Part shown: piece after piece, positions 1 to 22,206 of the stretch | How the letters are laid out: each line of letters starts with the position of its first letter | How positions within the stretch are numbered: the stretch's first letter is position 1 | Virus genome (UHGV): UHGV-0362220 | Direction: 5' to 3' (one strand) | Origin: a virus | DNA length: 25,918 nt | Program-made: the position numbers and the translations under genes | Notes under the pieces: model-generated | What the model was told of the DNA's origin: nothing | What the model saw: only the letters and a program-made list of their open reading frames with translations | The model's database searches: none

Positions 1-74
1 CACAACATCCGAGGACAGCAACACCCGATACTTTTTCCTGGCTTCCAGCAACGGGGTTTCTTCCTCCGTTGCAT
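1..74 (-). CDS. hypothetical protein, N-terminal fragment running off the left edge (MQRRKKPRCWKPGKSIGCCCPRML...)
   Basis: ATG at 74..72 preceded by AGGTGA about 7 nt upstream, 17 nt after the stop of the 92..385 ORF; frame open to the window edge. Only 24 codons visible, cysteine-rich; identity unknown. Confidence 0.2.
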   Translation of the reverse strand, partial: MQRRKKPRCWKPGKSIGCCCPRML

Positions 75-91
75 ATACAGCTCACCTTTTT

Positions 92-385
92 TCACCCACG
101 ATTAACCAACAGCCAGACCAGCAGACACGCCACCACCGGCACAGCAAAATCCATCAGGCTTGCCACATCCCAAGCTCGCGGATCAAAACCGCCCCACCAC
201 GGCATATTCATTCGCTTGCCATGCCCGAACATTTCAATCCAGCGATATTCTGCCTGGGTATGTTCACGCGCAATGAAGAACGTACAACCGGCTATCGCTC
301 CGTAAGCCCAGTTTCCGGTAAAAAGACCAACCAGTATCTGCGCAGCCACAGCACAAAGTGCATGAAGTAAGGGGCTTATATCCAT
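92..385 (-). CDS. hypothetical small membrane protein (97 aa, two predicted transmembrane helices)
   Basis: ATG at 385 preceded by AAGGAGG with a 5 nt spacer; two hydrophobic segments (LLHALCAVAAQILVGLFTG... and LMDFAVPVVACLLVWLLV) flank a W/G-rich loop (NMPWWGGFDPRAW). No family recognised. Confidence 0.6.
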   Translation of the reverse strand: MDISPLLHALCAVAAQILVGLFTGNWAYGAIAGCTFFIAREHTQAEYRWIEMFGHGKRMNMPWWGGFDPRAWDVASLMDFAVPVVACLLVWLLVNRG

Positions 386-397
386 TATTTCCTCCTT

Positions 398-676
398 TCA
401 GCTCCATTCCCGAAGCGGTGTTTCCAGCTCCACGACATAATCAGAGAATACAGAAACATCAAACAAGTCATCAAGAATGCGAATGTTGACAAAATAACCG
501 TCATTCCGGACACAGACAGGTTCTCCCTCTTCTGTTACCCCTGTTTCTGTGTAGGTGAAACCAATTTCATCGACTAACAGTTTATTCTGGAGGTCTTCAT
601 CCTCCTCCCAGTCAAGAGATGACAGGAAGGATTTAAACTCTCTGTTACCAGGAAATTTCAAAGTTAAATCTTTCAT
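398..676 (-). CDS. hypothetical acidic protein (92 aa), translationally coupled to the side tail fiber gene
   Basis: ATG overlaps the stf stop as ATGA (673..676); AAGGAGG lies in the last stf codons 4 nt upstream. Strongly acidic (WEEDEDLQ..., TEEGEP...). Sits where lambda has tfa, but no Tfa similarity recognised. Confidence 0.6.
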   Translation of the reverse strand: MKDLTLKFPGNREFKSFLSSLDWEEDEDLQNKLLVDEIGFTYTETGVTEEGEPVCVRNDGYFVNIRILDDLFDVSVFSDYVVELETPLREWS

Positions 677-2700
677 ACTGCCTCCTTGATTTGCCTGTCA
701 TTTAATTCTTTAAACCAGACTCTGAAATTTCTGATGTGTCCAAACAAATGACGCGTTCCTGCTGCGGTCTGCCCACCAAACCGGTACGATGTTGCTGTAA
801 CTCCAAATATTTTACCATTAAGGTTTGTTGTATAATTACCATTGCATATTGCATTTACTGATAAATCAGATTTAGCTCTCACACCCACAATGAACCTTTC
901 TCCATCTGAGGCAATTTGTGGCTGAACCATTCCTACGTTGGCGCTTATCTTTCCTGTTGCAACAAACCCCAGCGATAAATAATTATCATCAATACTGTGC
1001 CCTCCAACATCAAATATCCTTGGCGCAACATTGGGCGGTGTACTCCAGTTCCTGCTTACTTCGCACAATACCGTAAAAGGCCGTGTTGACAGGTTATTCT
1101 GCGATGGGATAGTAACTACATCACTTGCGCGTGTTGTTGGCATTGTAGTTACAATAAATGACGATGCCGTATTGCCCAGTTCAATTTGCGGCGTCGTCAT
1201 GGTTAATGTTGAGTCATCATAGAATGTCTCATTACTTATTTTATTTGTCATATAAAAAGCACAGTTAACGGTATCAATGTCCGTATTAGCTGTATAAGTG
1301 GCCTCATAGTAGGTCCACTCGCCCTGTTGTTCAGCTTTGGCTGTTATAAGGGATGTATTACCGCTTACTGTTGCGATCCGGGTATCCAGATCAAGATAAG
1401 AGTCAGCAGAGAAGGTATCTGTTCCACCAATAATAACTGAAACTCTTAACCTGCATCGTGCTTTAGCGCCTTTAACCCGGCACGAAAAAGTGAAACATTC
1501 ACCACTTGCCAGCGGGAATCTGTCTGCTGCAACCACACCATGCACAGTATAGCCACCTGTTGTTCCCACTATACTTTCCGTGGGTGTCACCGTGGCATAA
1601 TTGAACCCCTGTTTATCAGTGCCAAATGTTTTATTCAGTGCGGAATGAACAGTCCATGAGTCTGGTTTATTTGAGTTCCTCAGATAATTTGTCCTCTGTC
1701 CTTCAATCAATAAGCCATCGCGCTCAAATCGCGGTTCGTCAACTTCAGCAAGCTTGAGTTGGCCGGACTTATTAATATACGTTGCTGTTGAAGCACGTTT
1801 AAACTTAACAATCTTGTCGCCTGGCATTGTTATTTCATCGTCACCAATAACTATCTTTTTATAAGATGGCGAAAAACCCGTAATCATATCCAGTGAATCG
1901 TTAAACGGTATCCACACATCAGGCAGCGGCGGCACTATATTCGCACAGGGCTCTGCAGTCACTTCCGCTGCGGCTTCTGCGCGGTCTGCCGCCTTTTCAG
2001 CTCGTGTCGCTGCCGACAGAGCCTCATCCTTTTTCTGCCCGGCCTTTGTTGCGTCTGCTGCGGCCTCCCGCGCTTTTGTGGTGGCGACTCCGGCATTTTC
2101 AGCGGCTGACTCTGCATTACGGCGGGAAGCCTCTTCACTGTCTGCGGAGGCTTCTTCTGACGCACGGGCATTTGTCTCTGAACGTTCTGCCGCTGTTGCT
2201 GCGTTTTGTGCGGCTGTTTTTGAAGAAGCTGCCGCTTTCGCGCTGTTACCTGCATTCGTCTCTGATGTTTTCGCCGCGTTCCTGGACGATGCCGCTGCTG
2301 TTTCTGATTTCTTTGCTGCCGCTGCGCTCTGAGAGGCGGCTTCAGCGTTGCGTGCCGCCTCTTCCACCATCTTTTCAAAACGATACAGTGCCTCCGGACA
2401 AACATCATCTTCTGTTGCAGCGCCCAGAAAATCATTCAATGTCCCCGGCTTAGAATCCTCATACACGGTGATGGTCCCGGCATGTGAAGGCGGAAAACCT
2501 TCAACCAGCAGGGCGACGCTGTACTGGCCATACTCAACATCCATGCTGTAACGTCCGGCTTCATCCGGATTTTCTGAGGCCACCGTGTTCACCACAACTG
2601 TGGTGCTGTTACGTTTTGCTTTGAGCTGAATGGTGCAGTTCTGTATCGGTTTTCCTGCACCGTCTTTCAGCACACCTGAAATCTGTACTGCCATATTCAC
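673..2700 (-). CDS. stf: side tail fiber protein (lambda Stf-like N-terminal anchor, Ala/Ser/Glu-rich linker, unrelated C-terminal domain)
   Basis: First ~110 aa (MAVQISGVLKDGAGKPIQNCTIQLKAKRNSTTVVVNTV...EAGRYSMDVEYGQYS...PPSHAGTITVYED) match lambda Stf as recalled; residues ~110-240 are low-complexity A/S/E/K-rich; the C-terminal ~430 aa were not recognised. Confidence 0.85.
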   Translation of the reverse strand: MNMAVQISGVLKDGAGKPIQNCTIQLKAKRNSTTVVVNTVASENPDEAGRYSMDVEYGQYSVALLVEGFPPSHAGTITVYEDSKPGTLNDFLGAATEDDVCPEALYRFEKMVEEAARNAEAASQSAAAAKKSETAAASSRNAAKTSETNAGNSAKAAASSKTAAQNAATAAERSETNARASEEASADSEEASRRNAESAAENAGVATTKAREAAADATKAGQKKDEALSAATRAEKAADRAEAAAEVTAEPCANIVPPLPDVWIPFNDSLDMITGFSPSYKKIVIGDDEITMPGDKIVKFKRASTATYINKSGQLKLAEVDEPRFERDGLLIEGQRTNYLRNSNKPDSWTVHSALNKTFGTDKQGFNYATVTPTESIVGTTGGYTVHGVVAADRFPLASGECFTFSCRVKGAKARCRLRVSVIIGGTDTFSADSYLDLDTRIATVSGNTSLITAKAEQQGEWTYYEATYTANTDIDTVNCAFYMTNKISNETFYDDSTLTMTTPQIELGNTASSFIVTTMPTTRASDVVTIPSQNNLSTRPFTVLCEVSRNWSTPPNVAPRIFDVGGHSIDDNYLSLGFVATGKISANVGMVQPQIASDGERFIVGVRAKSDLSVNAICNGNYTTNLNGKIFGVTATSYRFGGQTAAGTRHLFGHIRNFRVWFKELNDRQIKEAV

Positions 2701-2707
2701 TCCACAA

Positions 2708-2733
2708 ATAAAAAAGGCACCATTTCTGGTGCC
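2708..2733 (-). terminator. tJ-like intrinsic terminator between J and stf
   Basis: Minus-strand RNA: stem GGCACC (2733..2728), loop AGAAAU, stem GGUGCC (2721..2716), then UUUUUUAUUU. Ends 8 nt before the stf start codon. Confidence 0.5.
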
Positions 2734-2752
2734 CGAATTTGGGTTTTAAAAT

Positions 2753-5700
2753 TCAACTGATACTGATGCCGGCTGTTGATTTCTTCATCACGACAACAAG
2801 AAGGTCGCTGATACTGGTCGTTGGCGTCCAGTTATTTGCACCATATGAAGAAACATTGAAAGTCAGGGTGACATGGCCGTGTCCGGCAGGCATATCAATG
2901 ACTGATGAAAATACCCTGCTGACATCCGTCGCGGGTTGCTGAAAGATTTCCTGTCCGTTCTTCAGCACCTGCAGCTTACAGGTTGAATACCAGTATGACT
3001 GTTGGTTGTTGCTGTTGAAGTTTTCATGCTTACCACCGCGAAACAGAACGGGGGGGACGACTATCTGACGGTCAAAAGCCTGGTCATCGTACACAGTGAC
3101 CGTTATTGTACCGCTGGCATAACTGCCATTTCTCGGAAAGGCTTTTCCCACCGTTTTGACAATATCACCTTCAATCTGGTTAGCTGACAGTTTTCCCAGA
3201 ATCCGACAGTTCTGGTTAATCGTGACATTATTGAGCGTCCCGGAGTTCGCATTCACGTTACCGCTGATATCCGCATTTCTCGCAGAAAGTCGACCATCAG
3301 GTGTCAGTGAAAACGTTGGGGGATTGCCACCGCTGGTAATGGTGGGAGCCGTCAGATATTTCAGGAACACTTCGTTCATGAATATCTGATCGCCCTGCCC
3401 AACAAACATCGGCTTTGTATTGCCATTCGCAGGATTAATCATCGCAATCCTGTCCGCCGCCAGCAGCACCTGACTCTGCATACCGTCAGGGGTATTCTCA
3501 ATACCGGCACCAATACCCGCGATATAAAGGCGTCCGTCCTGCATCTGCTGCAGCTTCACAGCCCACATGCTGTTCAGGTTATTATTTGTATCAACCTGAA
3601 CCTTCTGTATCTGCTGGATCGCTGCACTCTGGTCTTCCAGTTTCTTATTGACGGTCTGCGTGATTTCATTGCTGACATCCGTAATGGACGTCCTGATTTC
3701 AGCCAGGTCAGGCGCAAGCTGACCGTTATCAATCTGCGTCCACAACTCCTGAGCCAGATGGGTTTTCCCTATCTCTCCTTTGAAAAAATCCAGATAGCCG
3801 GATGCATCATCACTCGGCTGGCCAACAGCCTCCACAAATGCCGATTTGCCAACGGTGTTCACACTGCGAATGTAAAAATAATAATCATGGCCCGGTTTGA
3901 TATTGATACTGGCGGCTATCCAGTACAGCGCCGTACCAAGATAACGCGCGCTGGCTTCAACCTGCCTGATATCCGCAATCCGCTTTTCCGAGAACCAGAA
4001 CTCAAACTGTACCGTCGGATCATAAACGGCAAGATGCGGCGTTGCGGTTATCTGAAAATAGCCCGGCGTCAGCTCAATCCGCGATGGCGCTGCCGGTGCG
4101 GCAATCCGGAACGATACCGACGCCGGATCCCCCTGCTGCCCCCACGCATTTACCGCCCGGACTGTCAGCCTGTAGTTCCCCAGCGCCAGTTGCCTGAAGC
4201 GGTATGTGGTTTCCGTCGTCCTGGCCGTGCTGACCAGCCGCTCACTGCCGTCATCCGCTGCCACGGTCAGGCGAAGCATAAAGCTCACCCCCTTCACCAC
4301 CTTCGGTGTGTCCCATCGCGCCAGCACCTGATATTCCCCGCTGTCTGCGGTGACTTCTGCGGTCAGGTGCTGCACCGCGGGCGGCGTGACACCATTCACC
4401 GTGCCACTCTGTTCGCCGTCAAAGTGCGCCCCGTTATCCACGATGGTCTCTTTTTCCGGCACATGCTGCACGGCGGTGATGGCATACGTGCCGTCGTCGT
4501 TTTCACGGATACTCACGCAGCGGAACAGTCGCTGGCGCAGCGTCGGCAGCTTCAGCCCCCATACGCTGTATTCAGCAACACCGTCAGGAACACGGCTCAC
4601 TTTCACCTTCACGCCGTCGGTGACGGACTGAACCTCCACGCTGACCGGATTGCCACTTCCGTCAACCAGGCTTATCAGCGTGGTACCGGAGGATGGCAGC
4701 GTGATTTCACGGTCGAGCGTCAGCGTCCGGGTCTGGCTGTTCACCGCCAGCACACGACCACCGGTGCTGATACCGGCATAGTCATCATCGCAGATTTCAA
4801 TGACATCCCCCGGTACATGGCGAAGCCCTTCAGCACCCACGCTGAAGTCCACGGTCTGCGTTTCCAGCAGCTCCGTTTTAATCAGCCACAGCCCGGCGCG
4901 GTGTGCCTGCCCCCGGCTGGTACAGCCAAAGGCATCCATCTTCGTGACGTTACGGCCGTAACGGGCAATGGCCTGCGTATCCTCCACGAGCTCTGTCGCC
5001 GTCTCCCAGCCGTTATCCGGGTCAATCCAGTTCACCTCAACGGCATTATGGCGGTCCTTCAGGGCGCTGAAGCTGTAGCGGAACGGCGCGCCATCATCCG
5101 GCATCACCACATTACTGCGGTTATAGGTCCACACCTTATCTGATGGTCGGTCCTGCACGAACGTCAGCGTCTGCCCGTTCCATACCGGCATACAGCGCAT
5201 CGCCGAGCAGAAATCACTGAGCACATCCCACGCCTTGCGCTGTGTGGTCAGGTACGCATTACAGGTAATGCGCGGCTCCGTGCCGCCAAAGCCGTCCGGC
5301 ACCGACTGGTCGCAGTACTGGCCGATGACATACAGCGCCCATTTATCCACATCCGCCGCACCAAGACGTTTCCCCATGCCGTAGCGCGGATGGGTCAGCA
5401 TATCCCACAGACACCAGGCCATGTTGTTGCTGTATGCCGGTTTTAACGTTCCGTCCCAGATACCGCTGTATTGCCGCGTCTGCGGGTTATAGTTCGACGG
5501 CACCTGCAGAATGCGCCCGCGAAGATGATAATTACGGCTCACCTGCTGGCTGCCGAACTGCTCCGAGTCCACCTGCACGCCAACCAGTGCCGTGTTCGGG
5601 TAGCACTGTTTCACATCGATGATTTCGGTGTATGACGACCAGAGCGTTTTGTTCAGCAGCTGGTCTGTGGTGCTGTCCGGCGTCATCCTGCGCATCCGGA

Positions 5701-6235
5701 TATTAAACGGGCGCGGCGGCAGGTTATCCACCACCACCGAGGCCAGATACTGCGAGGTGGTTTTGCCCTTAATGGTGATGTCTTTTTCCGTCACCCAGCC
5801 ACCGTTACGCTGTATCTGAACCAGCAGGCGAACTTCCGACGGATTCCTGTCTCCCTTTGAGGTGGTTTCCACCAGTGCCTGTACACCGAAGGTAAAGCGC
5901 AGACGGTCGATGTTTGCCGACGTGATGGTCCGGGTGATCGGCGTGTCATATTTCACTTCCGTACCCAGCACCGTCTCGGAGCCGGAGGATTCAAATCCCT
6001 CCGGCGGTGACTGCTCCTGCTCACCGGCCCGGAACACCACCGTGACGCCGGATATATTGGTATTCCCCTCACTGTCCAGCACCGGCGTACTGTTCAGCAG
6101 CACGCTTTTTAATCCATCCACCGGACCTTCAACCGGCCCTTCGCTGATGGCATCGATCACACTCAGCAGCTGCGTGGACTTCAGGTTGTCCTTCGCTTCG
6201 CGCGGGGTATGCCCCTTACTGCTGCCTTTACCCAT
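2753..6235 (-). CDS. J: tail tip central fiber / host specificity protein J (1160 aa)
   Basis: Near-identical to lambda J over the N-terminal ~790 aa as recalled ([34 protein letters not shown]...); central and C-terminal parts diverge. Confidence 0.95.
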
Positions 6236-8287: not shown

Positions 8288-8628
8288 CAGTTCACCACCT
8301 GCTCAATCGTACAACTGAAATCACTGTGCCTGGCGTTATCTGTGACGCTCCACTCCCGGCACACCACCCTCACCGTCAGGTTATGTTTCGGCGGTCGCCA
8401 CAAAAAGGCACGGTAACCACCATGCCACGATAAAAATTCATCCAGCCAGCGCCGGGTTGGTTCATCCGTCACCCGGAACACCGCCTGAAACGTCTTCAGT
8501 CTGGCATTAAGTCCCGTCGGTCGGCGCTGTTCATAACCGTCACCAAACCGAACCCTCACCACCGACGGTTTCTCACTCACCTGCATCCCTTCACGCGGGA
8601 CCAGATGCAGCGTTTTTATCTCAGCCAC
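8287..8628 (-). CDS. M: minor tail protein M
   Basis: Lambda gpM-like (...VRFGDGYEQRRPTGLNARLKTF...; ends EQVVN as in lambda M). Position between H and L. Confidence 0.9.
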   Translation of the reverse strand: MAEIKTLHLVPREGMQVSEKPSVVRVRFGDGYEQRRPTGLNARLKTFQAVFRVTDEPTRRWLDEFLSWHGGYRAFLWRPPKHNLTVRVVCREWSVTDNARHSDFSCTIEQVVN

Positions 8629-11600
8629 TCAGCATTCCTCCGTCACGTCGCATGGACAGCATCACCGCCTGCACCCGCTGGTCAATCAGCTGCACAAGAC
8701 TGCCTGCCGCCTCCGCCCCTATCTGTCCGTTAGCCCCGTCATTCTGAATGGCGATGTGGTAGACCGGGGAATACACCAGACCGGCACTGCCGTTCATACT
8801 GCCCACCGCGCGTACGCCCAGCGAGCCATCCGCCGCCCGGGTCAGGGGCATAATGGCTTCAGGTCCGGCTTCCCCCATCAGCCCGGCCCCTTTTGCAAAC
8901 GCAAAGTACGTGGGCGTGTCCACAATGCTGTTGCTGTACGCACTCAGGTTTGCCGAGGTATACACGCCGCCTTTTGCATTGGCCACCGCACCGCCCAGCC
9001 AGTCACCAATGCTGCCAATAAATCCTCCCGCACCGGACATACCGTTTGCCGCCGTCTTAATTCCGTTGACAATCGCAGCATTCATAAGAACTTTTGAGAT
9101 TTCCTGCAGTACGGATGAGGCCCAGTTGCGCCATTCCACTTTGTTTCCGTTCAGCATCTCCGTGATGTTATTCACCATCCCTGAGATACCCTCCGTCGCA
9201 AGCTGTGCTGCCTGTGAGGCGTAATCGGATGCATTGTCCACCCAGTTACTGAGCCCCTCCTGCAAGCCTTTCTGCCAGTCCGCACGCTGCGCATCCGATT
9301 CGGCATAAAAGGCTGCCTGGTCCTTAAGGCGTTCGCTCAGATACTGCGCGTTCTGTGCCCGTGCCTGTCTGTAAAAATCCTCACTGATATCCCCGGTCTG
9401 ATACTGAGACTGAAGGTCCGCATCCTTCTGGCGGAAGCTGTCACGGATCTGCTGCAACTCCCGCATGCGTTCCCTGGCTCGTTCTCCCTGCCCGTATCCC
9501 AGCAGTTCGGCTTCATTTGATGCACGCGCAGCCACATTATCATTCTTCAGGGTCTCTTCCCGGGATCGCAACTGTTCCCGGATTTTTTGCTGGTCAATCA
9601 GGGCCGCGTTACGCAGCAGTTCCTGCTTCTGCATCTCCGTCAGGGTTTTCAGTTCGCCCTGCGCAGTCTGGTACTTCAGCTTCGCCAGCTCTGTATTCTG
9701 ACCCGCCAGTGCCAGTTGCTCTTTCTGCTGCTTCAGTAGCCGGGAAAAACTGTCTTCCGCTTTTTCCGTCTCTGATTTTCCACCCCGGGATTTAGGTTTG
9801 TTCGCCTCGTTATTACGCCAGGCTTCCAGAGCATTACTGATATAACGCTGTCTCGCCTCCTGATACGAATCCCCCACAAAACCAAGGTCATCCGCCGCAT
9901 ACCCCAGCCGGGCACGCTCTTTTTCCTCCCCCTTCAGTCGGGACAGGGCCAGCTCACGTTCTGTTTTTGTCAGGGCGCTCTGCTGTTTATCATCCAGGGT
10001 GGCCTGCGGCAGCCGTAACGGTACATTCACCAGTCCCTGACGCTGCTGAAGCAGTTCATTCCCCAGCCCCAGCAGACGGTTGAATTCCGTATGCTGACCG
10101 TTCATAACCAGCATGGACTGGTACACCTTATTCTGCTCTGCCGCCTGCTGACGAATTAACGCCACACGACGGTCTTCCAGCCCGGCAAGCACATCCTGAA
10201 TGGACTGCGCTTTTTCCTGCATCTGTGCCAGACGGGACTGCTCAACGGCAAGCTGCTCTGTTGCCTGAGAAAGCCCTTCCGTCACGGTCTTCACCGATGT
10301 CAGATGGTTTATCATGAATCCGTCACCGGTTGTCCAGCCAGGGTTAGCCAGAACATACTGATATCCAGCGATTTTTTCCTGCAGGGATTTCACCCGGCTG
10401 GCCTGTTCATCAATCAGCCGGTTCTGCTCTGCCAGCGCCGCCCGTGTTCGTCCTTCATTATCTGAGGCTTCAGGCAAAGACATTGACGGCGTTTTATGCG
10501 CGATTTCATCTATCGTCAGTGCATACTGGCGCGCTGACTCCCTGGCCTGCTCCTGATTCTGGTACAGCGTATACCATGCTGCTGCCCCCAGCATCACCAG
10601 TCCGGGTACGCCACCAACCAGTCCCAACGCACCAGTCATCAGACGTGAGCCCACCGCCGTTGTACTGTTCAGCTCATTCTGGGCTGCGGTTCTGGCAGCA
10701 ATATTTCTGTTCAGGCGTTCCTGTGTGGCCGCCAGACGGGCTTCTGCAGCAATCTGCATCTCCGTCCCGCGGGCTGCCGCCACAGCCTGCTGTGCACGGT
10801 ACACGGCTGCCCTTGCCCGCGCCGTGGCAATCTGCGTCCCCCTGAGCTGTGCTTCCGCCAGTGCCACTTCATTACGTGCTGCCGTCACAAGTCCTGCCGT
10901 GGCAGACACCGCTCCGGAGGCCATATTGCCAAAGTACCGGGCAACCCCGACGGCAACCAGCGCCCCCGCGGCTGTTGCCACATTATCAATATTACCGGCA
11001 ACACCGTTCAGCACGCCGGAGAGCGTTTTCGTCGCTCCGCTGGCTTCATTCGCGCCACCCACCCAGGCCATAAAGGCGTTTTCCACCTTTGTGATCCCGT
11101 CAGAGACCGTTTCCGGCATGGCGGCATATTCATCACGCAATACCCCCAGCTGGCTGATTAACGCAGGAACGACTTTATCCGCCGTCAGTTTGCCGTCGTC
11201 CGCCATCGCCTTAAGGTCTTTACGGGCCACGCCCATACCCGCAGCCAGTGCACGTACGATCCGGTCTCCGCTTTCATTGACCGAATTAAATTCCTCACCG
11301 CGTAACACACCCTGTGCCAGCGCCTGGCTGAACTGGGTGATCACCGAGCCCGCCTCTGCCGTACTGGCACCGGAGATTTTCAGCCCCGTGGAAATGGCCT
11401 CCGTCACCTTCAGCACATCATCAGCACTGTAACCATATTCACGCATTGAGGCTGCCGAGCGGGCAAACAGGGCCGCATTATCTGAAAATGCCGTGCCCGT
11501 CCGCTGGCTGATATCCATCAGCACTTTCTGTGATGACGAAAATTCATCGGATGACTGCGACGCCTGTTTCAGTCGGGCATTCACGGAACTCCATTCATCG

Positions 11601-11863
11601 GCCAGAGAAATCAGGTGTCCGGTGGCAAAGGCACCTGCAAATGCCCCCGCCGTTCCGGCAGCTGAAGCGCGGATTTCCGTCAACTGGCTGTTCAGCTCAG
11701 CCAGGGCGCGTCGCTGCACCCGGGCGACTGCGGCAGCCTGACGCCCGCCATTCTGCAGGGTCCGGTAATATTCACTGCCCATGCGGGAAGCCCGCTGGAT
11801 CTCCGACTGGAATGACTGCGAATTTGCCGAAATTTTGATAATCAGTTCACGTAACGTCGCCAT
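8621..11863 (-). CDS. H: tail tape measure protein (1080 aa)
   Basis: Long, mostly alpha-helical A/Q/E/R-rich protein with a Gly-rich hydrophobic segment, located between G-T and M. Length implies a tail somewhat longer than lambda (H is 853 aa there). Confidence 0.9.
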   Translation of the reverse strand: MATLRELIIKISANSQSFQSEIQRASRMGSEYYRTLQNGGRQAAAVARVQRRALAELNSQLTEIRASAAGTAGAFAGAFATGHLISLADEWSSVNARLKQASQSSDEFSSSQKVLMDISQRTGTAFSDNAALFARSAASMREYGYSADDVLKVTEAISTGLKISGASTAEAGSVITQFSQALAQGVLRGEEFNSVNESGDRIVRALAAGMGVARKDLKAMADDGKLTADKVVPALISQLGVLRDEYAAMPETVSDGITKVENAFMAWVGGANEASGATKTLSGVLNGVAGNIDNVATAAGALVAVGVARYFGNMASGAVSATAGLVTAARNEVALAEAQLRGTQIATARARAAVYRAQQAVAAARGTEMQIAAEARLAATQERLNRNIAARTAAQNELNSTTAVGSRLMTGALGLVGGVPGLVMLGAAAWYTLYQNQEQARESARQYALTIDEIAHKTPSMSLPEASDNEGRTRAALAEQNRLIDEQASRVKSLQEKIAGYQYVLANPGWTTGDGFMINHLTSVKTVTEGLSQATEQLAVEQSRLAQMQEKAQSIQDVLAGLEDRRVALIRQQAAEQNKVYQSMLVMNGQHTEFNRLLGLGNELLQQRQGLVNVPLRLPQATLDDKQQSALTKTERELALSRLKGEEKERARLGYAADDLGFVGDSYQEARQRYISNALEAWRNNEANKPKSRGGKSETEKAEDSFSRLLKQQKEQLALAGQNTELAKLKYQTAQGELKTLTEMQKQELLRNAALIDQQKIREQLRSREETLKNDNVAARASNEAELLGYGQGERARERMRELQQIRDSFRQKDADLQSQYQTGDISEDFYRQARAQNAQYLSERLKDQAAFYAESDAQRADWQKGLQEGLSNWVDNASDYASQAAQLATEGISGMVNNITEMLNGNKVEWRNWASSVLQEISKVLMNAAIVNGIKTAANGMSGAGGFIGSIGDWLGGAVANAKGGVYTSANLSAYSNSIVDTPTYFAFAKGAGLMGEAGPEAIMPLTRAADGSLGVRAVGSMNGSAGLVYSPVYHIAIQNDGANGQIGAEAAGSLVQLIDQRVQAVMLSMRRDGGMLSG

Positions 11864-14531: not shown

Positions 14532-14858
14532 TCATAACACCGTCGGACAACGCAAATCGTAAATCAGCACGGAAACAGAAAACGGCAGCTCCCCCTGAAG
14601 CAGTTCTTCCCGCTCCGCAAGATCCGGATTCCGGTACAGCATCCCGGTCAGTCGCATGGCAGCCCCCTTCATCCGGGTTAATGCCTCGCCCGGGATCAGT
14701 TCACCGTCCTCACGGATCACTTTATCCCGGCTGCCCTGAATGTAGGCCAGCAGCACGGCGGTAGCCTGACGAACCTTGTCCATCAGCATGTCATCATCCG
14801 CGTCATGGTCGACACGCAGATGTGCCTTGATCTCTTCCAGTGTCAGTAATGCCGTCAT
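14532..14858 (-). CDS. head-tail connector protein (gp6-like)
   Basis: N-terminal LTLEEIKAHLRVDHDADDDML motif typical of gp6-like connectors; directly downstream of and overlapping the portal gene. Confidence 0.7.
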   Translation of the reverse strand: MTALLTLEEIKAHLRVDHDADDDMLMDKVRQATAVLLAYIQGSRDKVIREDGELIPGEALTRMKGAAMRLTGMLYRNPDLAEREELLQGELPFSVSVLIYDLRCPTVL

Positions 14859-17116
14859 TTTCCGCCTCCTGCATCCCGCCCACGTTTTGCAGCCAGGGTC
14901 CAGGCTGATGAATGAGCTTCTCCGGGTTTATCTTCGGTCATACTGTTGCAGTGCCACAGCGAGCCCCCCCACGTCACCGTATCGCCGGGGTGGTAGGTTT
15001 CACCGGCTCTGAACACACCGCGGTAGAGCATCACCGGCAGGGAAAATGTTTTTTCCGTACGCTGGCCACTGCTCTGCCGGACCACCACAGAGAACAACCG
15101 CTCACCCGTCATGCTGACGTCAATATCCGCCACCCCGTCAACCAGGCATTCCCATCCCCGCATCCCGTGCGTTTTTTCATACGCCCGCCAGAGTCCGCCC
15201 TGGTGTGTGGCATACGTGCCCCGGGGAAAGGATTTTTGATCGTCAATGGCGGGGAGTATTTCCAGAGCCGTGGCATCACGCCCGTCCTGCGGAGCCGGCA
15301 GGGCACTCACCGCATCCAGAACCGCCTTCTGCAGAACATCCGGATCGTAGTCACGACCATCACGCGGAACATGAATATGGCTTACCGCCTCCTTCACCAT
15401 CTGTTCAAGCATCGGACGCACATCATCCGGGGTGAGACTTTTACCGTCCGCCGGCTGCGGAATATTTGCGACCGCATCATTCACCGCCTGCTGCAGTACA
15501 TCCGGATCATAATCACGACCATCACGCGGTACCGGAATGGCCCCCACAGCGTCATCCACCATCGCCTGCAGAACCGGACGCACCTCATCCACCGTCACAT
15601 GCTTCTGTAATACCGCCGACAGGGAAGTCAGTTTCTCTTCAAACGCTTGTGCCTGCGAGGCCATCTTCCCCTCAAATGTGCGCTGTAAATCCGCCAGCAC
15701 TGTGGAGAATTCTTCTCCCAGTGCACGAATAATGGACAGTTCCCGTTCCGTCATTTTCTCAGTATCCCCCCTGAACATCGCTTTCACCGCATCATGCTCT
15801 GTTTCACTGATTGCCTTATTACCGTCAGATGCGCCGTCAGGCAGCTGTGATGAAACTGTTTTCCCGGCAGACGCGAACGGATCCTCACGGGCATCACGAC
15901 GGGACAGCGCCTCCAGACTGTAGTTCTGCTGCTGAAGATACAGTGCATCACCGCCGGCCAGGGGCGGCAGGTTCTCCCGTTTACGGGCCTCATTGGGCGT
16001 GAGAAGCGTATTTTTCACCGCATCCCCCAGCGTTTTCATGCGCCGCTCACTGTCCATTCTCAGCAGCGTGGTGACATCAAATTCTGTACTCTCGTTTTCC
16101 CCCGTTTCCAGCGCCTCATCCAGTAACAGTTCAATGGACTCAATCAGCGTCTGCAGGCACTGGGAATAATACTGCTGCTCCAGCGCCTCCACGTTGTCAC
16201 TGGAAGGCGGTTGTCCCACGCCAATCTTGTAGGCCGGGACACGGAACACCGAACAGACAATTTCAGCGGTCATCTTCAGTTGTTCCACCGTCTGCGCATC
16301 CACAGGTGAAAACGTCGTGGGGTTGTATTTTGCCCCGTTGCTCAGAATGGCCGTTTTCCCCGCATTTTCGCCTGTATACCCGCTGTCCCAGTTGCTCTTC
16401 AGTTTTTTCGCATTTTCTTCCGTAATACTGCCGGGGATCTCAATCACCCCGGACGGCCTGCCGCCATTTCTGAAAAAAGACGTCGAATTTTCCTGAATAT
16501 GATGCCCCTGCGTGGCCGCCAGCCCGGCGGCATACACCGGCGGCAATCCTATAAGCGGATGAAAAAAACAGTTAAACCGGTCGTGGATCACTTCCCGGGC
16601 AGGCACCGTCACCGCCTCCGTGATCCCGCAGTTCCGGTCCGGCGTGATGCGGTAGAACACCTCGCCGTCATCCGCCACCAGAGGTTCAACCCGGCTCCAG
16701 TCCAGAATACGCAGTTCTTTGATCTGCCCCCGGGCATTACGGATTTTCAGCACCACCGTATTGCCATGACGCAGTTTGGCGTTCAGCCACAGTTCAAAAA
16801 ACTGGATGCGGTTCTGCTGGGCGTTGGGACGACGACAGAGGCGGGCAATATCCCCCCGGCGCGTTTCCCTGCGTATCCCATGCGCATCCGTCTGCATAAG
16901 ACGCAGCCGCATTTTGGCGATATCCTGGGATATCAGCGAAATACATGCAAACACCGCATGAAAGGAGAGGACGGCTTCAGGATCGGCTTTCACGCCCTGC
17001 TGCCAGGCGCCGGAAAAGGGCTCAGCCACCGCCTGAAACAGGCTGGTCCAGCCCGCCTCTCTTACGTCACGTCCTGATTTCTGGTTTTTTCGGGTTCGCC
17101 GTAAAAGGTTCCACAT
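14855..17116 (-). CDS. portal protein (HK97 family) with ~350-aa C-terminal extension
   Basis: N-terminal ~400 aa carry HK97-portal signatures (FFRNGGRPSGVIEIPG..., ILSNGAKYNP..., FRVPAYKIGVG..., LTPNEARKRENLPPLAGGD). The extension holds two ~54-aa tandem repeats (VPRDGRDYDPDVLQ.AV.DAV) and an unrecognised terminal domain. Confidence 0.8.
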   Translation of the reverse strand: MWNLLRRTRKNQKSGRDVREAGWTSLFQAVAEPFSGAWQQGVKADPEAVLSFHAVFACISLISQDIAKMRLRLMQTDAHGIRRETRRGDIARLCRRPNAQQNRIQFFELWLNAKLRHGNTVVLKIRNARGQIKELRILDWSRVEPLVADDGEVFYRITPDRNCGITEAVTVPAREVIHDRFNCFFHPLIGLPPVYAAGLAATQGHHIQENSTSFFRNGGRPSGVIEIPGSITEENAKKLKSNWDSGYTGENAGKTAILSNGAKYNPTTFSPVDAQTVEQLKMTAEIVCSVFRVPAYKIGVGQPPSSDNVEALEQQYYSQCLQTLIESIELLLDEALETGENESTEFDVTTLLRMDSERRMKTLGDAVKNTLLTPNEARKRENLPPLAGGDALYLQQQNYSLEALSRRDAREDPFASAGKTVSSQLPDGASDGNKAISETEHDAVKAMFRGDTEKMTERELSIIRALGEEFSTVLADLQRTFEGKMASQAQAFEEKLTSLSAVLQKHVTVDEVRPVLQAMVDDAVGAIPVPRDGRDYDPDVLQQAVNDAVANIPQPADGKSLTPDDVRPMLEQMVKEAVSHIHVPRDGRDYDPDVLQKAVLDAVSALPAPQDGRDATALEILPAIDDQKSFPRGTYATHQGGLWRAYEKTHGMRGWECLVDGVADIDVSMTGERLFSVVVRQSSGQRTEKTFSLPVMLYRGVFRAGETYHPGDTVTWGGSLWHCNSMTEDKPGEAHSSAWTLAAKRGRDAGGGK

Positions 17117-17283
17117 TCGCCATGCTCCGCATCACGTTTCTTTTTCTGACCTGCCGGACGTCGCACCGTGATGTACTCCGCCTTTCCCAGGCGAACCAGC
17201 ACCTCCGCACACGGCTGTGCCACATCACGGATATCCCCGGCCCGGGCATCATGCGTGCCCTGCAGATATCGGATCTTTGCCAT
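17062..17283 (-). CDS. hypothetical protein (73 aa) between capsid and portal genes
   Basis: ATG at 17283 downstream of an SD-hairpin arrangement; overlaps the annotated portal start by 55 nt; basic and lysine-rich. Coding status uncertain. Confidence 0.3.
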   Translation of the reverse strand: MAKIRYLQGTHDARAGDIRDVAQPCAEVLVRLGKAEYITVRRPAGQKKKRDAEHGECGTFYGEPEKTRNQDVT

Positions 17284-17293
17284 AACCTGTTAC

Positions 17294-17311
17294 GGGAGGC
17301 GCACGCCTCCC
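17294..17311 (-). promoter_or_regulatory. perfect 8-bp stem / 2-nt loop hairpin between an SD and the next start codon
   Basis: GGGAGGCG ca CGCCTCCC. On the minus strand: UGA (MCP stop), UAAGGAGGAC, hairpin, GUAACAGGUU, AUG at 17283. The hairpin contains GGGAGG and sits between the AGGAGG SD and the AUG. Confidence 0.5.
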
Positions 17312-17327
17312 GTCCTCCTTATCAGAC

Positions 17328-19265
17328 TCAGCCGCCGGACGCACTGCCGTAGTTCACTCCGGTGATCACCGCCACCGCCGCAGTACGGCGACGACGCCAG
17401 TTGATCCAGCGCTCCGCACGGATGGCCACGCTGCCTGTCTGGAACATGGAAACCAGCTCCACCGGGGACGGCGTGGTACTGTCGCCGGTCGGCTCAGACT
17501 GCATTTCCAGTGATGCCTCGCGGGACATATCCACTGCCACGCCGCCGTCATCCGCCAGATAAATATCCGGGGCATTCACCAGCACCAGCTGGTCACCCAC
17601 GTACTGGGAGACAATCACCGGCAGCCCCTGGAAGGAGCCACCCAGCAGGGTCATGTCCGGGTATTCCTTCTGACCCAGCGCATTTTTACGCATGGACAGT
17701 GCCAGGGCATTGGTGCTGGACATCAGCCAGACCGCACCGGTGGGCTGCAGGTTTGCTGCCACAAACTGTCCAAACGCAGCCTCTGCATCCGCATCCGGGT
17801 TACCGGTTGATGCCGTGCCCTTCACATCATGGGTGATGGACGCCGGGGAGACATCTGCCACTGCGGCTTTTTTCGGGTCCACAAAGTCTGTATCCAGACG
17901 CGCCACCACCGCTTCCGCCAGCGCATTACGGACCAGTGCATCAGCAGCCGGACTGGAAAAACGGATCAATTCTTCCGTCAGTACCGCAATGGCCGACACC
18001 TTCGCATGACTGAAGGTGATGGATTCAAAATCAAACTTCGTCAGGGGTTTTGCCTTACCCTCACCCACCCAGCCGGCAGCACCGCCGGACACCTGGGCGT
18101 GCACACGGATATTGAATGGCACCTGACGAAGTGCAGGGATCCCGCCCTGACCAAATCGCCCGATAATGGTCTGCGGACGCAGGTAATCAATAAAGTCCTG
18201 TGCGTATTCCTGATATTCAGACAGGCTGCCTGCCCACTGCGGATCCGTGGTGGTCCCCGCGCCCACTGCCGATTTCAGGACATGATGCAGACGACTGTCA
18301 TCCGGATACTGACGACGGGCCACTTCCAGGGCTTCAGATCGGACGCCTTTAGCCGCAGCCAGCGATTTGGCAAAGCGGGCGAAGCCAATCCCCTTATCCA
18401 GTTTCTGCTCCACACGGATCACCGGCGCAGAAGCCACCGCGGCCACATTCCCGTTACCGGCCTGTTTCACCGGCTGCGCCGTGGCGGCCTTACCGGCTTC
18501 CAGTTCACGCAGGCGCTTCAGGTGCGCATCCACCTGACGGATTTCCGCTGCGGTGTTGTCGTAATGCTCTTCCTCCTCCACATCCAGCGTGCGCCCTTCC
18601 TCTGCGGCTTTGGTCATGACCTCCTCAAGGGAGGCTGCCAGCGCTGCACGCTTGTTTTCAAAACTTTTAATCTGTTCGCCAATATTCATTATGGTCTTTT
18701 CCTTATGAAAAACGGTTGTTGACTGTGCCGCAGCGCCGGCAGAAGATGCGATTTTCACCACCGGTTTCCGGTTGCCGGACGCGGCAGAAAACGGGCGGTC
18801 GTAAGATTTAATGGTCCGGATGGTGCATTCCGCATTCGCGGGCACGGTGACGGCAGACACCTCCATCAGTTCCCAGCGCAGAAAATGCAGTCCGCCTCCG
18901 TCCAGAAAGGTGTATTCATGGGGACGGAAGCCCACGGACAGCCCCCTGACCAGCCCGGTCTTAATGGCCGCCCAGACCTCATCCAGCCGGGCAGCCAGTT
19001 GCGACGGCATATCCGGTACGGGCTTCACCAGTGTTGCCGTGATTTCCAGCCCTTCGCTGACCCGGCGCACCGTACACTGCCCCACCGGGCGGGAATGGTC
19101 ATGCTGCCAGAGAAACGGGATCGCACTGCCAAACTCCGCGCCCTCCGGCTCCAGGATGTCACCATCCCGATCCGGAGAAGGCGTTGACGCAATCCCGGTG
19201 ATCACCCGTTCATCCTCACTGAAGGATTTCACCGTCAGCAGGGAACAGGCCCGTTTAAGAGTCAC
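17328..19265 (-). CDS. prohead protease (S78 family) fused in frame to an HK97-type major capsid protein
   Basis: N-terminus has S78 protease motifs (QHDHSRPVGQ, GLSVGF, ELMEVSAVTVPAN); then a coiled-coil segment and a capsid-like C-terminal half. GTG start at 19265 with AGGAGG 5 nt upstream. An internal in-frame ATG (MNIGEQIKSFENKRAA...) has AAGGAAAAG upstream. Confidence 0.8.
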   Translation of the reverse strand: MTLKRACSLLTVKSFSEDERVITGIASTPSPDRDGDILEPEGAEFGSAIPFLWQHDHSRPVGQCTVRRVSEGLEITATLVKPVPDMPSQLAARLDEVWAAIKTGLVRGLSVGFRPHEYTFLDGGGLHFLRWELMEVSAVTVPANAECTIRTIKSYDRPFSAASGNRKPVVKIASSAGAAAQSTTVFHKEKTIMNIGEQIKSFENKRAALAASLEEVMTKAAEEGRTLDVEEEEHYDNTAAEIRQVDAHLKRLRELEAGKAATAQPVKQAGNGNVAAVASAPVIRVEQKLDKGIGFARFAKSLAAAKGVRSEALEVARRQYPDDSRLHHVLKSAVGAGTTTDPQWAGSLSEYQEYAQDFIDYLRPQTIIGRFGQGGIPALRQVPFNIRVHAQVSGGAAGWVGEGKAKPLTKFDFESITFSHAKVSAIAVLTEELIRFSSPAADALVRNALAEAVVARLDTDFVDPKKAAVADVSPASITHDVKGTASTGNPDADAEAAFGQFVAANLQPTGAVWLMSSTNALALSMRKNALGQKEYPDMTLLGGSFQGLPVIVSQYVGDQLVLVNAPDIYLADDGGVAVDMSREASLEMQSEPTGDSTTPSPVELVSMFQTGSVAIRAERWINWRRRRTAAVAVITGVNYGSASGG

Positions 19266-21840: not shown

Positions 21841-22206
21841 TTACAGTCCGATGATGTCGTCCTCTCTGCCACTACCTCCGGACACCTCCGGCAGCGTCGG
21901 GTCCGGCATACCACTCGCCGCTTCACGAGCAGACTTTTGTCGATGGCATTCGGCACAGAGCGTCCAAAGATTCGTCTCCTCATTACCACCACCGAACTGA
22001 AGTGCAATTCGGTGATCGAGTTCACTGTCACAGAGGTCAACCACACGACCACAGATACAGCACTGCCCGGCGTCCCTCAGCCAGATATGACGCTTGAGGG
22101 AAACACGTGCACTGCCACTGACACGACGCTGCTCCCCCTTCAGAATATTCACCCGTCGGGTATTCAGTGTTTTGATTCTGCTCTGGAGTGTACGAAGCTC
22201 AGCCAT
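21841..22206 (-). CDS. HNH homing-type endonuclease (terminase-associated)
   Basis: Classic HNH motif: CCICGR...DHRIALQFGG...NLWTLCAECHRQK. Lies immediately upstream of the terminase genes. Confidence 0.9.
   Translation of the reverse strand: MAELRTLQSRIKTLNTRRVNILKGEQRRVSGSARVSLKRHIWLRDAGQCCICGRVVDLCDSELDHRIALQFGGGNEETNLWTLCAECHRQKSAREAASGMPDPTLPEVSGGSGREDDIIGL

What the first reader, a model, noticed from the sequence alone, without database searches (positions are those of the whole stretch)
2753..3500. J is lambda-like except for a replaced receptor-binding C-terminus
The protein follows lambda J closely for ~790 residues, then shows a divergent central patch and an unrelated last ~170 aa (after ...[20 protein letters not shown]). 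In lambda the J C-terminus determines LamB binding, so this phage probably uses a different outer-membrane receptor. Together with the non-lambda Stf distal domain this is a clear host-range mosaic.
Basis: partly seen in the sequence, partly recalled or inferred. Interest (0 to 1): 0.4.

Follow-up and report, generated by a model that had tools for sequence, protein, structure and literature searches.

The report
Phage 21-type J tail tip allele
The tail-tip protein J of this prophage carries the same receptor-binding end as the classical coliphage 21, which uses LamB just as lambda does, so this is a common, already characterised allele and not a new host-range determinant.

Summary
The gene at window 2753-6235 (minus strand) encodes an intact 1160-aa J protein. 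It is 97% identical to lambda J up to about residue 810-820 and diverges after that, so the mosaic is real. The end is not "unrelated", though. The last 174 aligned residues are 53% identical to lambda J, the last 175 aa give BLASTP E=2e-47 against it, and they match Pfam's J receptor-binding domain at 129 bits (cutoff 26). The whole divergent C-terminal third is the phage 21 allele. There are 21 differences in 1160 residues, and residues 987-1160 are identical to phage 21 J. Published knockout assays report LamB as phage 21's native receptor, with a single I1025T change adding OmpC. The window has I1025. One caveat is that the assayed laboratory phage 21 carries E1071K, whereas the window has E1071. 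A relative 82% identical in this region (A8 gpJ, PDB 9wcb) binds OmpC. The allele is common: at least 99% identical DNA occurs in 468 complete E. coli genome records and 17 phage records. The real difference from phage 21 lies in the distal side tail fibre. The finding is ordinary and already known.

The parts
2753..6235 (-). J gene (central tail fibre / tip attachment protein), 1160 codons plus stop; phage 21-type allele
   Evidence: ORF. 99.9% nt identity to J of phage PhiR47_2 and 96.6% to phage 21 J over the full length. 21 aa differences from phage 21 J and 1 from PhiR47_2. Six Pfam J/tail domains above their cutoffs.
3812..6235 (-). Residues 1-808: hub domains and two FNIII/Ig domains, nearly lambda-identical
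   Evidence: 799/820 identical to lambda J. 96% nt identity over gene nt 1-2460. Pfam FNIII-A_GpJ, Phage-tail_3, Ig_J and Ig_J_second. Aligns to PDB 8iyk residues 1-835.
3569..3811 (-). Boundaries are transferred from the lambda structure paper (lambda 809-861).
   Evidence: 23/53 identical to lambda with 28 gapped columns. 44/45 identical to phage 21 over residues 821-865. Lambda domain names are from PMC11101478.
3638..3730 (-). Stretch holding the 28 extra residues relative to lambda J (gaps opposite window residues 836-856 and 860-866); shared with phage 21
   Evidence: Alignments. 28 residues equals four heptads, so a longer helical shaft is inferred but not shown.
3158..3568 (-). Residues 890-1026: central straight fibre (beta prism), including the conserved island with [20 protein letters not shown] (962-981)
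   Evidence: Pfam Phage_Tail_Tip on residues 872-1000. 46/72 identical to lambda over 890-961 and 19/20 over 962-981. nt identity 83-85% at residues 941-980, falling to 78% at 981-1000.
3161..3163 (-). Codon I1025. In phage 21 the I1025T change adds OmpC use; the window has the ancestral Ile.
   Evidence: residue 1025 = I; PMC11336670 section 8.
2756..3157 (-). Residues 1027-1160: Ig-like receptor-binding domain, identical to that of phage 21
   Evidence: Residues 987-1160 are identical to phage 21 J. Pfam Ig_GpJ_C 1.6e-37. 82% identical to A8 gpJ (PDB 9wca/9wcb), 50% to lambda and 48% to phage 434. Relatives share gene nt 1-3101 but carry other receptor-binding alleles.
3023..3025 (-). Codon E1071. 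The laboratory phage 21 used in the receptor assays carries K here (G18903A); the window and GenBank phage 21 have E.
   Evidence: Methods of bioRxiv 10.1101/2023.04.13.536812.
2715..2734 (-). Intrinsic-terminator-like hairpin plus T-run between J and stf; there is no lom gene here
   Evidence: A terminator is annotated at the same place in phage 21. Lambda and 434 have lom/ail at this position.
676..2694 (-). Side tail fibre Stf, 673 aa: N-terminal ~275 aa as in phage 21, with a divergent distal ~400 aa
   Evidence: Pfam phage_tail_N 2.8e-67. 64% overall identity to phage 21 Stf; in the printed alignment it is near-identical to about residue 275 and much weaker beyond. 99% identical to PhiR47_2 Stf. 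phrog_1419 tail protein.

Best explanation
This is the phage 21-type allele of the lambdoid central tail fibre protein J. By homology with the solved lambda J structures, it forms a trimer. The N-terminal ~810 residues build the tail-tip hub and FNIII collar. Residues ~809-889 form an alpha-helical shaft, 28 residues longer than lambda's. Residues ~890-1026 form the beta-prism straight fibre. Residues ~1027-1160 form an Ig-like receptor-binding domain whose distal loops insert into a trimeric outer-membrane porin.

The receptor-binding domain is residue-for-residue that of phage 21, so the most likely receptor is the maltoporin LamB, the same as lambda's despite only about 50% identity. As shown for lambda, binding would spread the three receptor-binding domains, twist the fibre, flip the helical shaft and open the tail tip for DNA ejection. 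This allele sits close to OmpC use: in phage 21 one substitution (I1025T) adds OmpC, and a natural relative 82% identical in this region binds OmpC.

Shown here: the gene is intact, the domains are homologous, and the receptor-binding domain is identical to phage 21's. Taken from the literature: phage 21 uses LamB. Inferred: this prophage's virions do the same, and the lambda opening mechanism applies.
For: - Intact ORF with all J domains above the Pfam cutoffs.
- 21/1160 differences from phage 21 J, none in residues 987-1160. Only R986K falls within the last 175 aa, and 17 phage records are at least 99% identical to the window over those 175 aa.
- The J-terminator-stf-two small ORFs layout is the same as in phage 21 and PhiR47_2.
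[quoted passage not shown] It fails on a lamB deletion strain until it acquires I1025T, which adds OmpC. This was shown with double-knockout hosts. LamB is also listed as the phage 21 receptor in PMC12803456.
- The window has I1025.
- Fold homology: phmmer 1e-143 to the A8 gpJ fragment (9wca) and 3e-94 to the lambda J fragment 8xcj, which is the LamB-bound state.
- J is 99.9% identical in nt (1 aa difference) to J of PhiR47_2, a deposited complete phage genome whose listed host is E. coli C, so the allele appears to be functional in a phage.
Against: - The receptor has not been tested for this prophage.
- The laboratory phage 21 ancestor used in the knockout assays differs from GenBank phage 21, and from the window, by E1071K inside the receptor-binding domain. 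The exact window sequence was therefore not the one assayed.
- Sequence identity does not track receptor in this family. A8 gpJ is 82% identical in this region yet binds OmpC (PDB 9wcb holds both chains; PMC11338833). Lambda is 50% identical and binds LamB.
- Three of the window's differences from phage 21 lie in the shaft and fibre (D853G, I912V, R986K), regions where destabilising changes can alter receptor use.
- LamB variants in natural hosts may matter.
Confidence: 0.85

Rival explanations
1. One reading: the J C-terminus confers use of a different outer-membrane receptor from lambda's, most plausibly OmpC, either natively or alongside LamB.
For: The closest solved relative, A8 gpJ (82.3% identical over the last 175 aa), is an OmpC binder and is deposited in complex with OmpC. 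Phage 21 gains OmpC use with a single substitution. The assayed laboratory phage 21 carries E1071K, whereas the window, GenBank phage 21 and A8 all have E1071.
Against: The receptor-binding domain is identical to phage 21's, for which LamB is reported as the native receptor. The OmpC-enabling I1025T change is absent. A8 differs from the window at 34 positions in residues 968-1160, clustered in five variable stretches. The other published OmpC-binding chimera, 1A2, is a clearly different allele.
Confidence: 0.1
2. The J C-terminus is a non-homologous domain acquired from outside the J family, as 'unrelated' would imply, with an unpredictable target.
For: None beyond the visual impression of divergence. 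nt identity to lambda is only 46-57% across most of the domain.
Against: Collinear alignment to lambda J to the last residue at 50% identity, E=2e-47. Pfam Ig_GpJ_C at 129 bits. A graded series of alleles (100%, 87%, 82%, 69%, 50%, 47%) links it to lambda's domain among 262 phage records.
Confidence: 0.01
3. The gene is a decaying remnant in a cryptic prophage and no longer makes a working fibre, so its specificity is moot.
For: The window is prophage-like and its inducibility is unknown. Most of the window resembles other lambdoid prophages at only 90-97% identity.
Against: An uninterrupted 1160-codon ORF with one aa difference from the J of the deposited phage PhiR47_2. The neighbouring I, K, L, M, H, stf, head and lysis genes are intact ORFs with the expected domains.
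Confidence: 0.04

Closest known systems
Phage 21 central tail fibre J (CPT_21_21, UMO75436.1, GenBank OL657228); native receptor LamB
   Same: Same length (1160 aa), 98.2% aa identity, and identical residues 987-1160. It shares the 28-aa shaft insertion relative to lambda, the downstream terminator, the Stf N-terminus and the two small ORFs.
   Different: 21 scattered substitutions, 18 of them in residues 1-820, plus D853G, I912V and R986K. The Stf distal ~400 aa is a different allele.
Escherichia phage PhiR47_2 J (XSB42920.1, PV340567)
   Same: 99.9% nt identity with 1 aa difference (G228S). Stf is 99% identical. Gene order downstream of J is the same.
   Different: Essentially none in the tail tip. 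PhiR47_2 is not among the 12 best-matching phage records listed for window 1-25000, and the rest of the two genomes was not compared directly.
Lambda J (P03749; PDB 8iyk, 8xcg, 8xcj/8xck); receptor LamB
   Same: Same domain architecture throughout. 97% identity to residue ~820. Same Ig-like receptor-binding domain family, and probably the same receptor.
   Different: The lambda shaft is 28 aa shorter. The fibre is 64% identical over residues 890-961 and 19/20 over 962-981. The receptor-binding region is about 50% identical, with four indels in residues 1039-1131.
A8 gpJ chimera (lambda 1-964 plus a natural prophage J C-terminus; PDB 9wca, 9wcb with OmpC; Brodel et al. 2024, PMC11338833)
   Same: Same receptor-binding sub-family: 82.3% identical over the last 175 aa, no indels, and the last 29 residues identical.
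   Different: 34 substitutions in residues 968-1160, clustered at 1008-1013, 1030-1037, 1047-1060, 1087-1107 and 1119-1131. A8 binds OmpC rather than LamB.
Phage 434 J (UMO75286.1); receptor OmpC
   Same: Same family and architecture. 47.8% identity over the last 175 aa, E=1e-44.
   Different: As distant from the window allele as lambda's domain is. It is followed by an ail/lom-type gene, which is absent from the window.

Membership tests
Lambda-type central tail fibre / tip attachment protein J | N-terminal hub and FNIII/Ig domain set (Pfam FNIII-A_GpJ, Phage-tail_3, Ig_J, Ig_J_second) | tested here: met
   All four match above their cutoffs, E=1e-39 to 1e-43. Residues 1-835 align to PDB 8iyk.
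Lambda-type central tail fibre / tip attachment protein J | Position in the tail operon after M, L, K and I and before stf | tested here: met
   ORF order. Same order as the annotated lambda, phage 21 and PhiR47_2 loci.
J C-terminal receptor-binding domain (Pfam PF12421 Ig_GpJ_C) | Profile match above the gathering score at the extreme C-terminus | tested here: met
   129 bits against a cutoff of 26.2, residues 1038-1160 on profile positions 17-135 of 135.
J C-terminal receptor-binding domain (Pfam PF12421 Ig_GpJ_C) | Collinear alignment to solved receptor-binding-domain structures | tested here: met
   9wca 1e-143 and 8xcj 3e-94 over window J residues 866-1160 / 866-1159 (query residues 154-448 / 154-447 of the fragment searched). 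No structure prediction was run because solved homologues at 82% and 50% identity cover the whole domain.
Phage 21-type J allele | 28-aa longer helical shaft and phage 21-type fibre sequence | tested here: met
   44/45 identical over residues 821-865 and 123/125 over residues 866-990 to phage 21.
Phage 21-type J allele | Receptor-binding domain sequence identical to phage 21 | tested here: met
   Residues 987-1160 show no differences. 99.4% over the last 175 aa.
LamB-dependent lambdoid phages | Infection or adsorption abolished on a lamB deletion host | not testable with these tools
   Taken from the literature on phage 21 only. The assayed stock had E1071K.
OmpC-dependent J variants (A8, 1A2, 434, phage 21 I1025T) | Sequence identity to a J shown to use OmpC, or presence of the I1025T change | tested here: not met
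   82% to A8, 48% to 434, and 1A2 is a different allele. Residue 1025 is Ile.

The most novel reading that the evidence does not exclude
The natural E1071 form of the phage 21-type receptor-binding domain, as found in this prophage and at >=99% DNA identity in hundreds of E. coli genomes, may natively use OmpC as well as, or instead of, LamB. On this reading the LamB-only phenotype reported for laboratory phage 21 would be partly a consequence of its E1071K change. This very common allele would then be a natural dual-receptor J.
Probability: 0.07. Interest if true: 0.35.

Novelty: already known. Interest (0 to 1): 0.1.

Why it matters
It matters little as a discovery. The allele is sequenced, common, structurally covered by close homologues and functionally studied in phage 21.

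The useful lesson concerns method. In the J family, receptor choice cannot be read from percent identity to lambda. The lambda and phage 21 domains share LamB at about 50% identity. The phage 21 and A8 domains differ in receptor (LamB versus OmpC) at 82% identity. One substitution outside the binding loops can add a receptor. For annotation, this J should be labelled 'phage 21-type J, probable LamB receptor'. Host-range differences from phage 21 should be sought in the Stf distal domain.

Tried and rejected
- Looked for receptor data on the near-identical phage PhiR47_2. The source paper (Brenes & Laub 2025) is not held. The SNIPE paper that uses the same phage panel gives ManYZ dependence only, not outer-membrane receptors.
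- Checked whether the window's receptor-binding domain equals the second published OmpC-binding chimera, 1A2. The supplement DNA is OCR-noisy, so no exact identity could be computed, but diagnostic stretches (KHEKEHTDIYSSC, AWLVNNWYPT, ATAGITIS) show a different allele.
- Compared with HK97 J (taken from my own knowledge to be a LamB user) and N15 gp21 (FhuA). Neither shows similarity to the last 175 aa: no hit better than E = 2.9 (N15) or 9.2 (HK97). The only HK97 match, 27% identity at E=2.6e-7, falls in the fibre part of the last-250-aa query. They are uninformative.
- The phage 21 genome announcement says nothing about the receptor.
- The two structural papers on lambda J did not list contact residues in the text I retrieved, so conservation of LamB-contacting residues could not be scored.
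- I did not run the large protein-database searches or a structure prediction. A solved homologue at 82% identity and an identical characterised sequence already answer the question.
- Rfam scan of the whole window: no hits.
- The long antisense ORF inside J (3758-5143, +) is not treated as a gene, because lambda J has an equivalent unannotated one.

Full report
**The observation.** Window 2753-6235 on the minus strand is one uninterrupted ORF of 1160 codons. It carries the full set of lambda J domains: FNIII-A_GpJ, Phage-tail_3, Ig_J, Ig_J_second, Phage_Tail_Tip and Ig_GpJ_C, all far above their Pfam cutoffs. The finding's coordinates, 2753-3500, correspond to residues 912-1160.

Against lambda J (NC_001416) the protein is 799/820 identical over residues 1-820. 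At the DNA level, identity is 93-97% up to gene nt 2400, 78% at nt 2401-2460, and 25-37% over nt 2461-2640.

The 'divergent central patch' is real:
- 28 extra residues relative to lambda, as two gaps opposite window residues 836-856 and 860-866.
- 43% identity over residues 809-889.
- 64% identity over residues 890-961.

The claim that everything after this motif is unrelated to lambda does not hold:
- The next 30 residues are 22/30 identical to lambda.
- Residues 982-1160 are 92/174 identical with 10 gapped columns.
- BLASTP of the last 175 aa against lambda J runs to the last residue at 50.3% identity, E=2e-47.
- Pfam's J C-terminal receptor-binding domain matches at 129 bits against a cutoff of 26.2.
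- phmmer aligns window J residues 866-1159 (query residues 154-447 of the fragment searched) to the solved lambda fragment 8xcj at 3e-94.

The C-terminal third is strongly divergent, but it is a homologous allele and not a foreign domain.

**What it is.** The whole gene is 99.9% identical in DNA to J of Escherichia phage PhiR47_2 and 96.6% identical to J of the classical lambdoid phage 21 (OL657228), both over the full length. At the protein level there is one difference from PhiR47_2 and 21 from phage 21. Eighteen of those 21 lie in residues 1-820; the other three are D853G, I912V and R986K. Residues 987-1160 are identical to phage 21 J. The 28-residue insertion and the divergent fibre are shared with phage 21: 44/45 identical over residues 821-865 and 123/125 over residues 866-990.

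The surroundings are also phage 21-like. A terminator hairpin follows J at 2715-2734, and one is annotated at the same place in phage 21. There is no lom gene, unlike lambda and 434. Next come stf and two small conserved ORFs.

Using the domain names of the lambda J structures (PMC11101478), the divergent region comprises the alpha-helical shaft (window ~809-889), the beta-prism central straight fibre (~890-1026) and the Ig-like receptor-binding domain (~1027-1160). The extra 28 residues equal four heptads, which suggests a longer shaft. That is an inference.

**Comparison with J proteins of known receptor.** Over the last 175 aa:

| J protein | Receptor | Identity to window |
|---|---|---|
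| Phage 21 | LamB | 99.4% (R986K only) |
| A8 gpJ | OmpC | 82.3% |
| Lambda | LamB | 50.3% |
| Phage 434 | OmpC | 47.8% |
| HK97 J | LamB (from my own knowledge) | no similarity in this part |
| N15 gp21 | FhuA | no similarity in this part |

A8 is a chimera of lambda J 1-964 with a natural prophage J C-terminus, engineered to target OmpC (PMC11338833). PDB entry 9wcb holds both an A8 gpJ fragment and an OmpC chain. The second OmpC chimera from that paper, 1A2, is a clearly different allele. Its sequence is only available as noisy OCR text, so I give no exact figure.

In the phage collection, the last 175 aa fall into a graded series of alleles. Seventeen records are at least 99% identical. 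Clusters follow near 87%, 82%, 69% and 65%, and then lambda-like and other alleles at 45-50%.

Several relatives match gene nt 1-3101 at 94-97% (PhiR55_1, vB_EcoS-640R1, PhiR46_1 and phage 500465-3). PhiR46_1, however, is only 67.6% identical over the last 175 aa. A natural exchange point therefore appears to lie at about residue 1034, the junction between fibre and receptor-binding domain.

**The receptor.** Borin et al. [quoted passage not shown] They show with lamB, ompC and ompF knockout combinations that it acquires OmpC use and then OmpF use during coevolution. Gerbino et al. (PMC11336670) tabulate the ancestor as LamB-only and identify I1025T as the single change that adds OmpC. The window has Ile at 1025. 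A third paper lists LamB as the receptor of lambda, K10, TP1, phage 21 and Bp7 (PMC12803456).

Because the receptor-binding domain here is identical to phage 21's, LamB is by far the most likely receptor. That is lambda's own receptor.

**Caveats.**
- The laboratory phage 21 used in those assays differs from the GenBank sequence by G18903A. I map this to E1071K inside the receptor-binding domain. The window, GenBank phage 21 and A8 all have E1071, so the exact window sequence was not the one assayed.
- Identity is a poor guide to receptor in this family. The 82%-identical A8 binds OmpC, while the 50%-identical lambda domain binds LamB.
- The 34 differences between the window and A8 in residues 968-1160 cluster at 1008-1013, 1030-1037, 1047-1060, 1087-1107 and 1119-1131. 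They may mark the specificity loops, but I could not test that.

I put about 0.85 on LamB as the primary receptor and about 0.1 on native OmpC use, alone or in addition.

**Mechanism.** This rests on homology with lambda and is inferred, not shown here. The trimeric receptor-binding domain inserts its distal loops into the extracellular mouth of the porin trimer. Binding spreads the bases of the three domains, new hydrogen bonds compact and twist the straight fibre, the helical shaft flips back, the FNIII strings dissociate and the hub opens (PMC11101478). The Stf side fibres, attached through the conserved N-terminal domain (Pfam phage_tail_N), would give faster reversible adsorption to a separate surface target, as in Ur-lambda (PMC12617516).

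**The mosaic claim.** Relative to lambda, both J (from residue ~810) and Stf are different alleles, so 'mosaic' is correct but ordinary for lambdoid phages. Relative to phage 21, J is the same. Stf is near-identical for its first ~275 aa and then much more weakly similar over the distal ~400 aa (64% overall), while being 99% identical to PhiR47_2 Stf. Any host-range difference from phage 21 is therefore more likely to reside in Stf than in J.

**Prevalence and novelty.** The 748-nt segment of the finding occurs at 99% identity or more in 468 records, and at 95-99% in a further 525, among 5,426 complete E. coli genomes. It is annotated there as gpJ. The allele has been sequenced many times, is covered by solved structures of close homologues, and has been the subject of experimental evolution work. 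It is already known, and interest is low.

**Other checks.** There are no Rfam matches in the window. The 461-aa antisense ORF inside J (3758-5143, +) has a counterpart in lambda J and is not evidence of a gene. The rest of the window is a lambdoid late operon: phage 21-type holin, lysozyme, Rz, HNH, TerS, TerL, a protease-capsid fusion, portal and tail genes. It is closest to vB_EcoS-569R3 (96.6%) and to Stx-phage-like prophages at 90-92%.

Noticed in passing
window 676-1870 (-), distal ~400 aa of Stf: The Stf distal part is much more weakly similar to phage 21 Stf than the near-identical first ~275 aa (64% overall), yet Stf as a whole is 99% identical to PhiR47_2 Stf. It gives a weak CBM_4_9 match (E=1.9e-4, below cutoff) and hits phrog_1419. 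This is the real host-range-relevant difference from phage 21. No tfa-like chaperone gene follows it.
   Followed up: partly
window 2695-2752, between J and stf: There is no lom/ail-type outer-membrane gene between J and stf, unlike lambda and 434. Only a 58-nt spacer with a terminator hairpin is present, as in phage 21.
   Followed up: yes
window 8621-11863 (-): The tape measure ORF is 1080 aa, against 853 aa in lambda and in phage 21. It combines TMP_3, HK97-type TLTM and lambda-type C-terminal domains. This predicts a tail roughly a quarter longer than lambda's. The start codon was not verified.
   Followed up: partly
window 3758-5143 (+): A 461-aa ORF lies antisense to J. Lambda J has an equivalent 564-aa antisense ORF that is not annotated as a gene. 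It probably reflects codon composition and not a coding sequence.
   Followed up: partly
window 14855-19265 (-): A 645-aa ORF fuses a prohead protease (S78) to a capsid domain. It is followed by a 753-aa portal ORF in which the Pfam portal domain covers only residues 54-382, leaving a C-terminal ~370 aa unassigned.
   Followed up: no
window 21841-22206 (-): An HNH endonuclease ORF (121 aa) lies just upstream of the small and large terminase genes, the arrangement known for HK97-like cos packaging modules.
   Followed up: no
window 1-25000 versus the phage collection: Only the tail-tip end (J, stf) was seen to be near-identical to PhiR47_2, which is not among the 12 best-matching phage records listed for window 1-25000. 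Over that span the best match is vB_EcoS-569R3 (83% coverage, 96.6%), and Stx1a/Stx2a-converting phages match at 90-92%. The prophage is mosaic beyond the J gene as well.
   Followed up: partly
L003 / PhiR46_1, PhiR55_1, vB_EcoS-640R1: Relatives share J nt 1-3101 at 95-97% but then carry other receptor-binding alleles; PhiR46_1 is 67.6% identical over the last 175 aa. This points to a recurrent recombination junction at about residue 1034, some 70 residues downstream of the engineered junction (lambda residue 964) used for the A8 and 1A2 chimeras.
   Followed up: partly
window 92-385 and 398-676 (-): Two small conserved ORFs follow stf: a 92-aa hypothetical protein (phrog_1361) and a 97-aa ORF (phrog_1443, unknown function) whose phage 21 counterpart is annotated as a putative membrane protein. 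Both are also present in phage 21 and PhiR47_2, where they precede the sitABCD transporter cargo. Their function is unknown.
   Followed up: no
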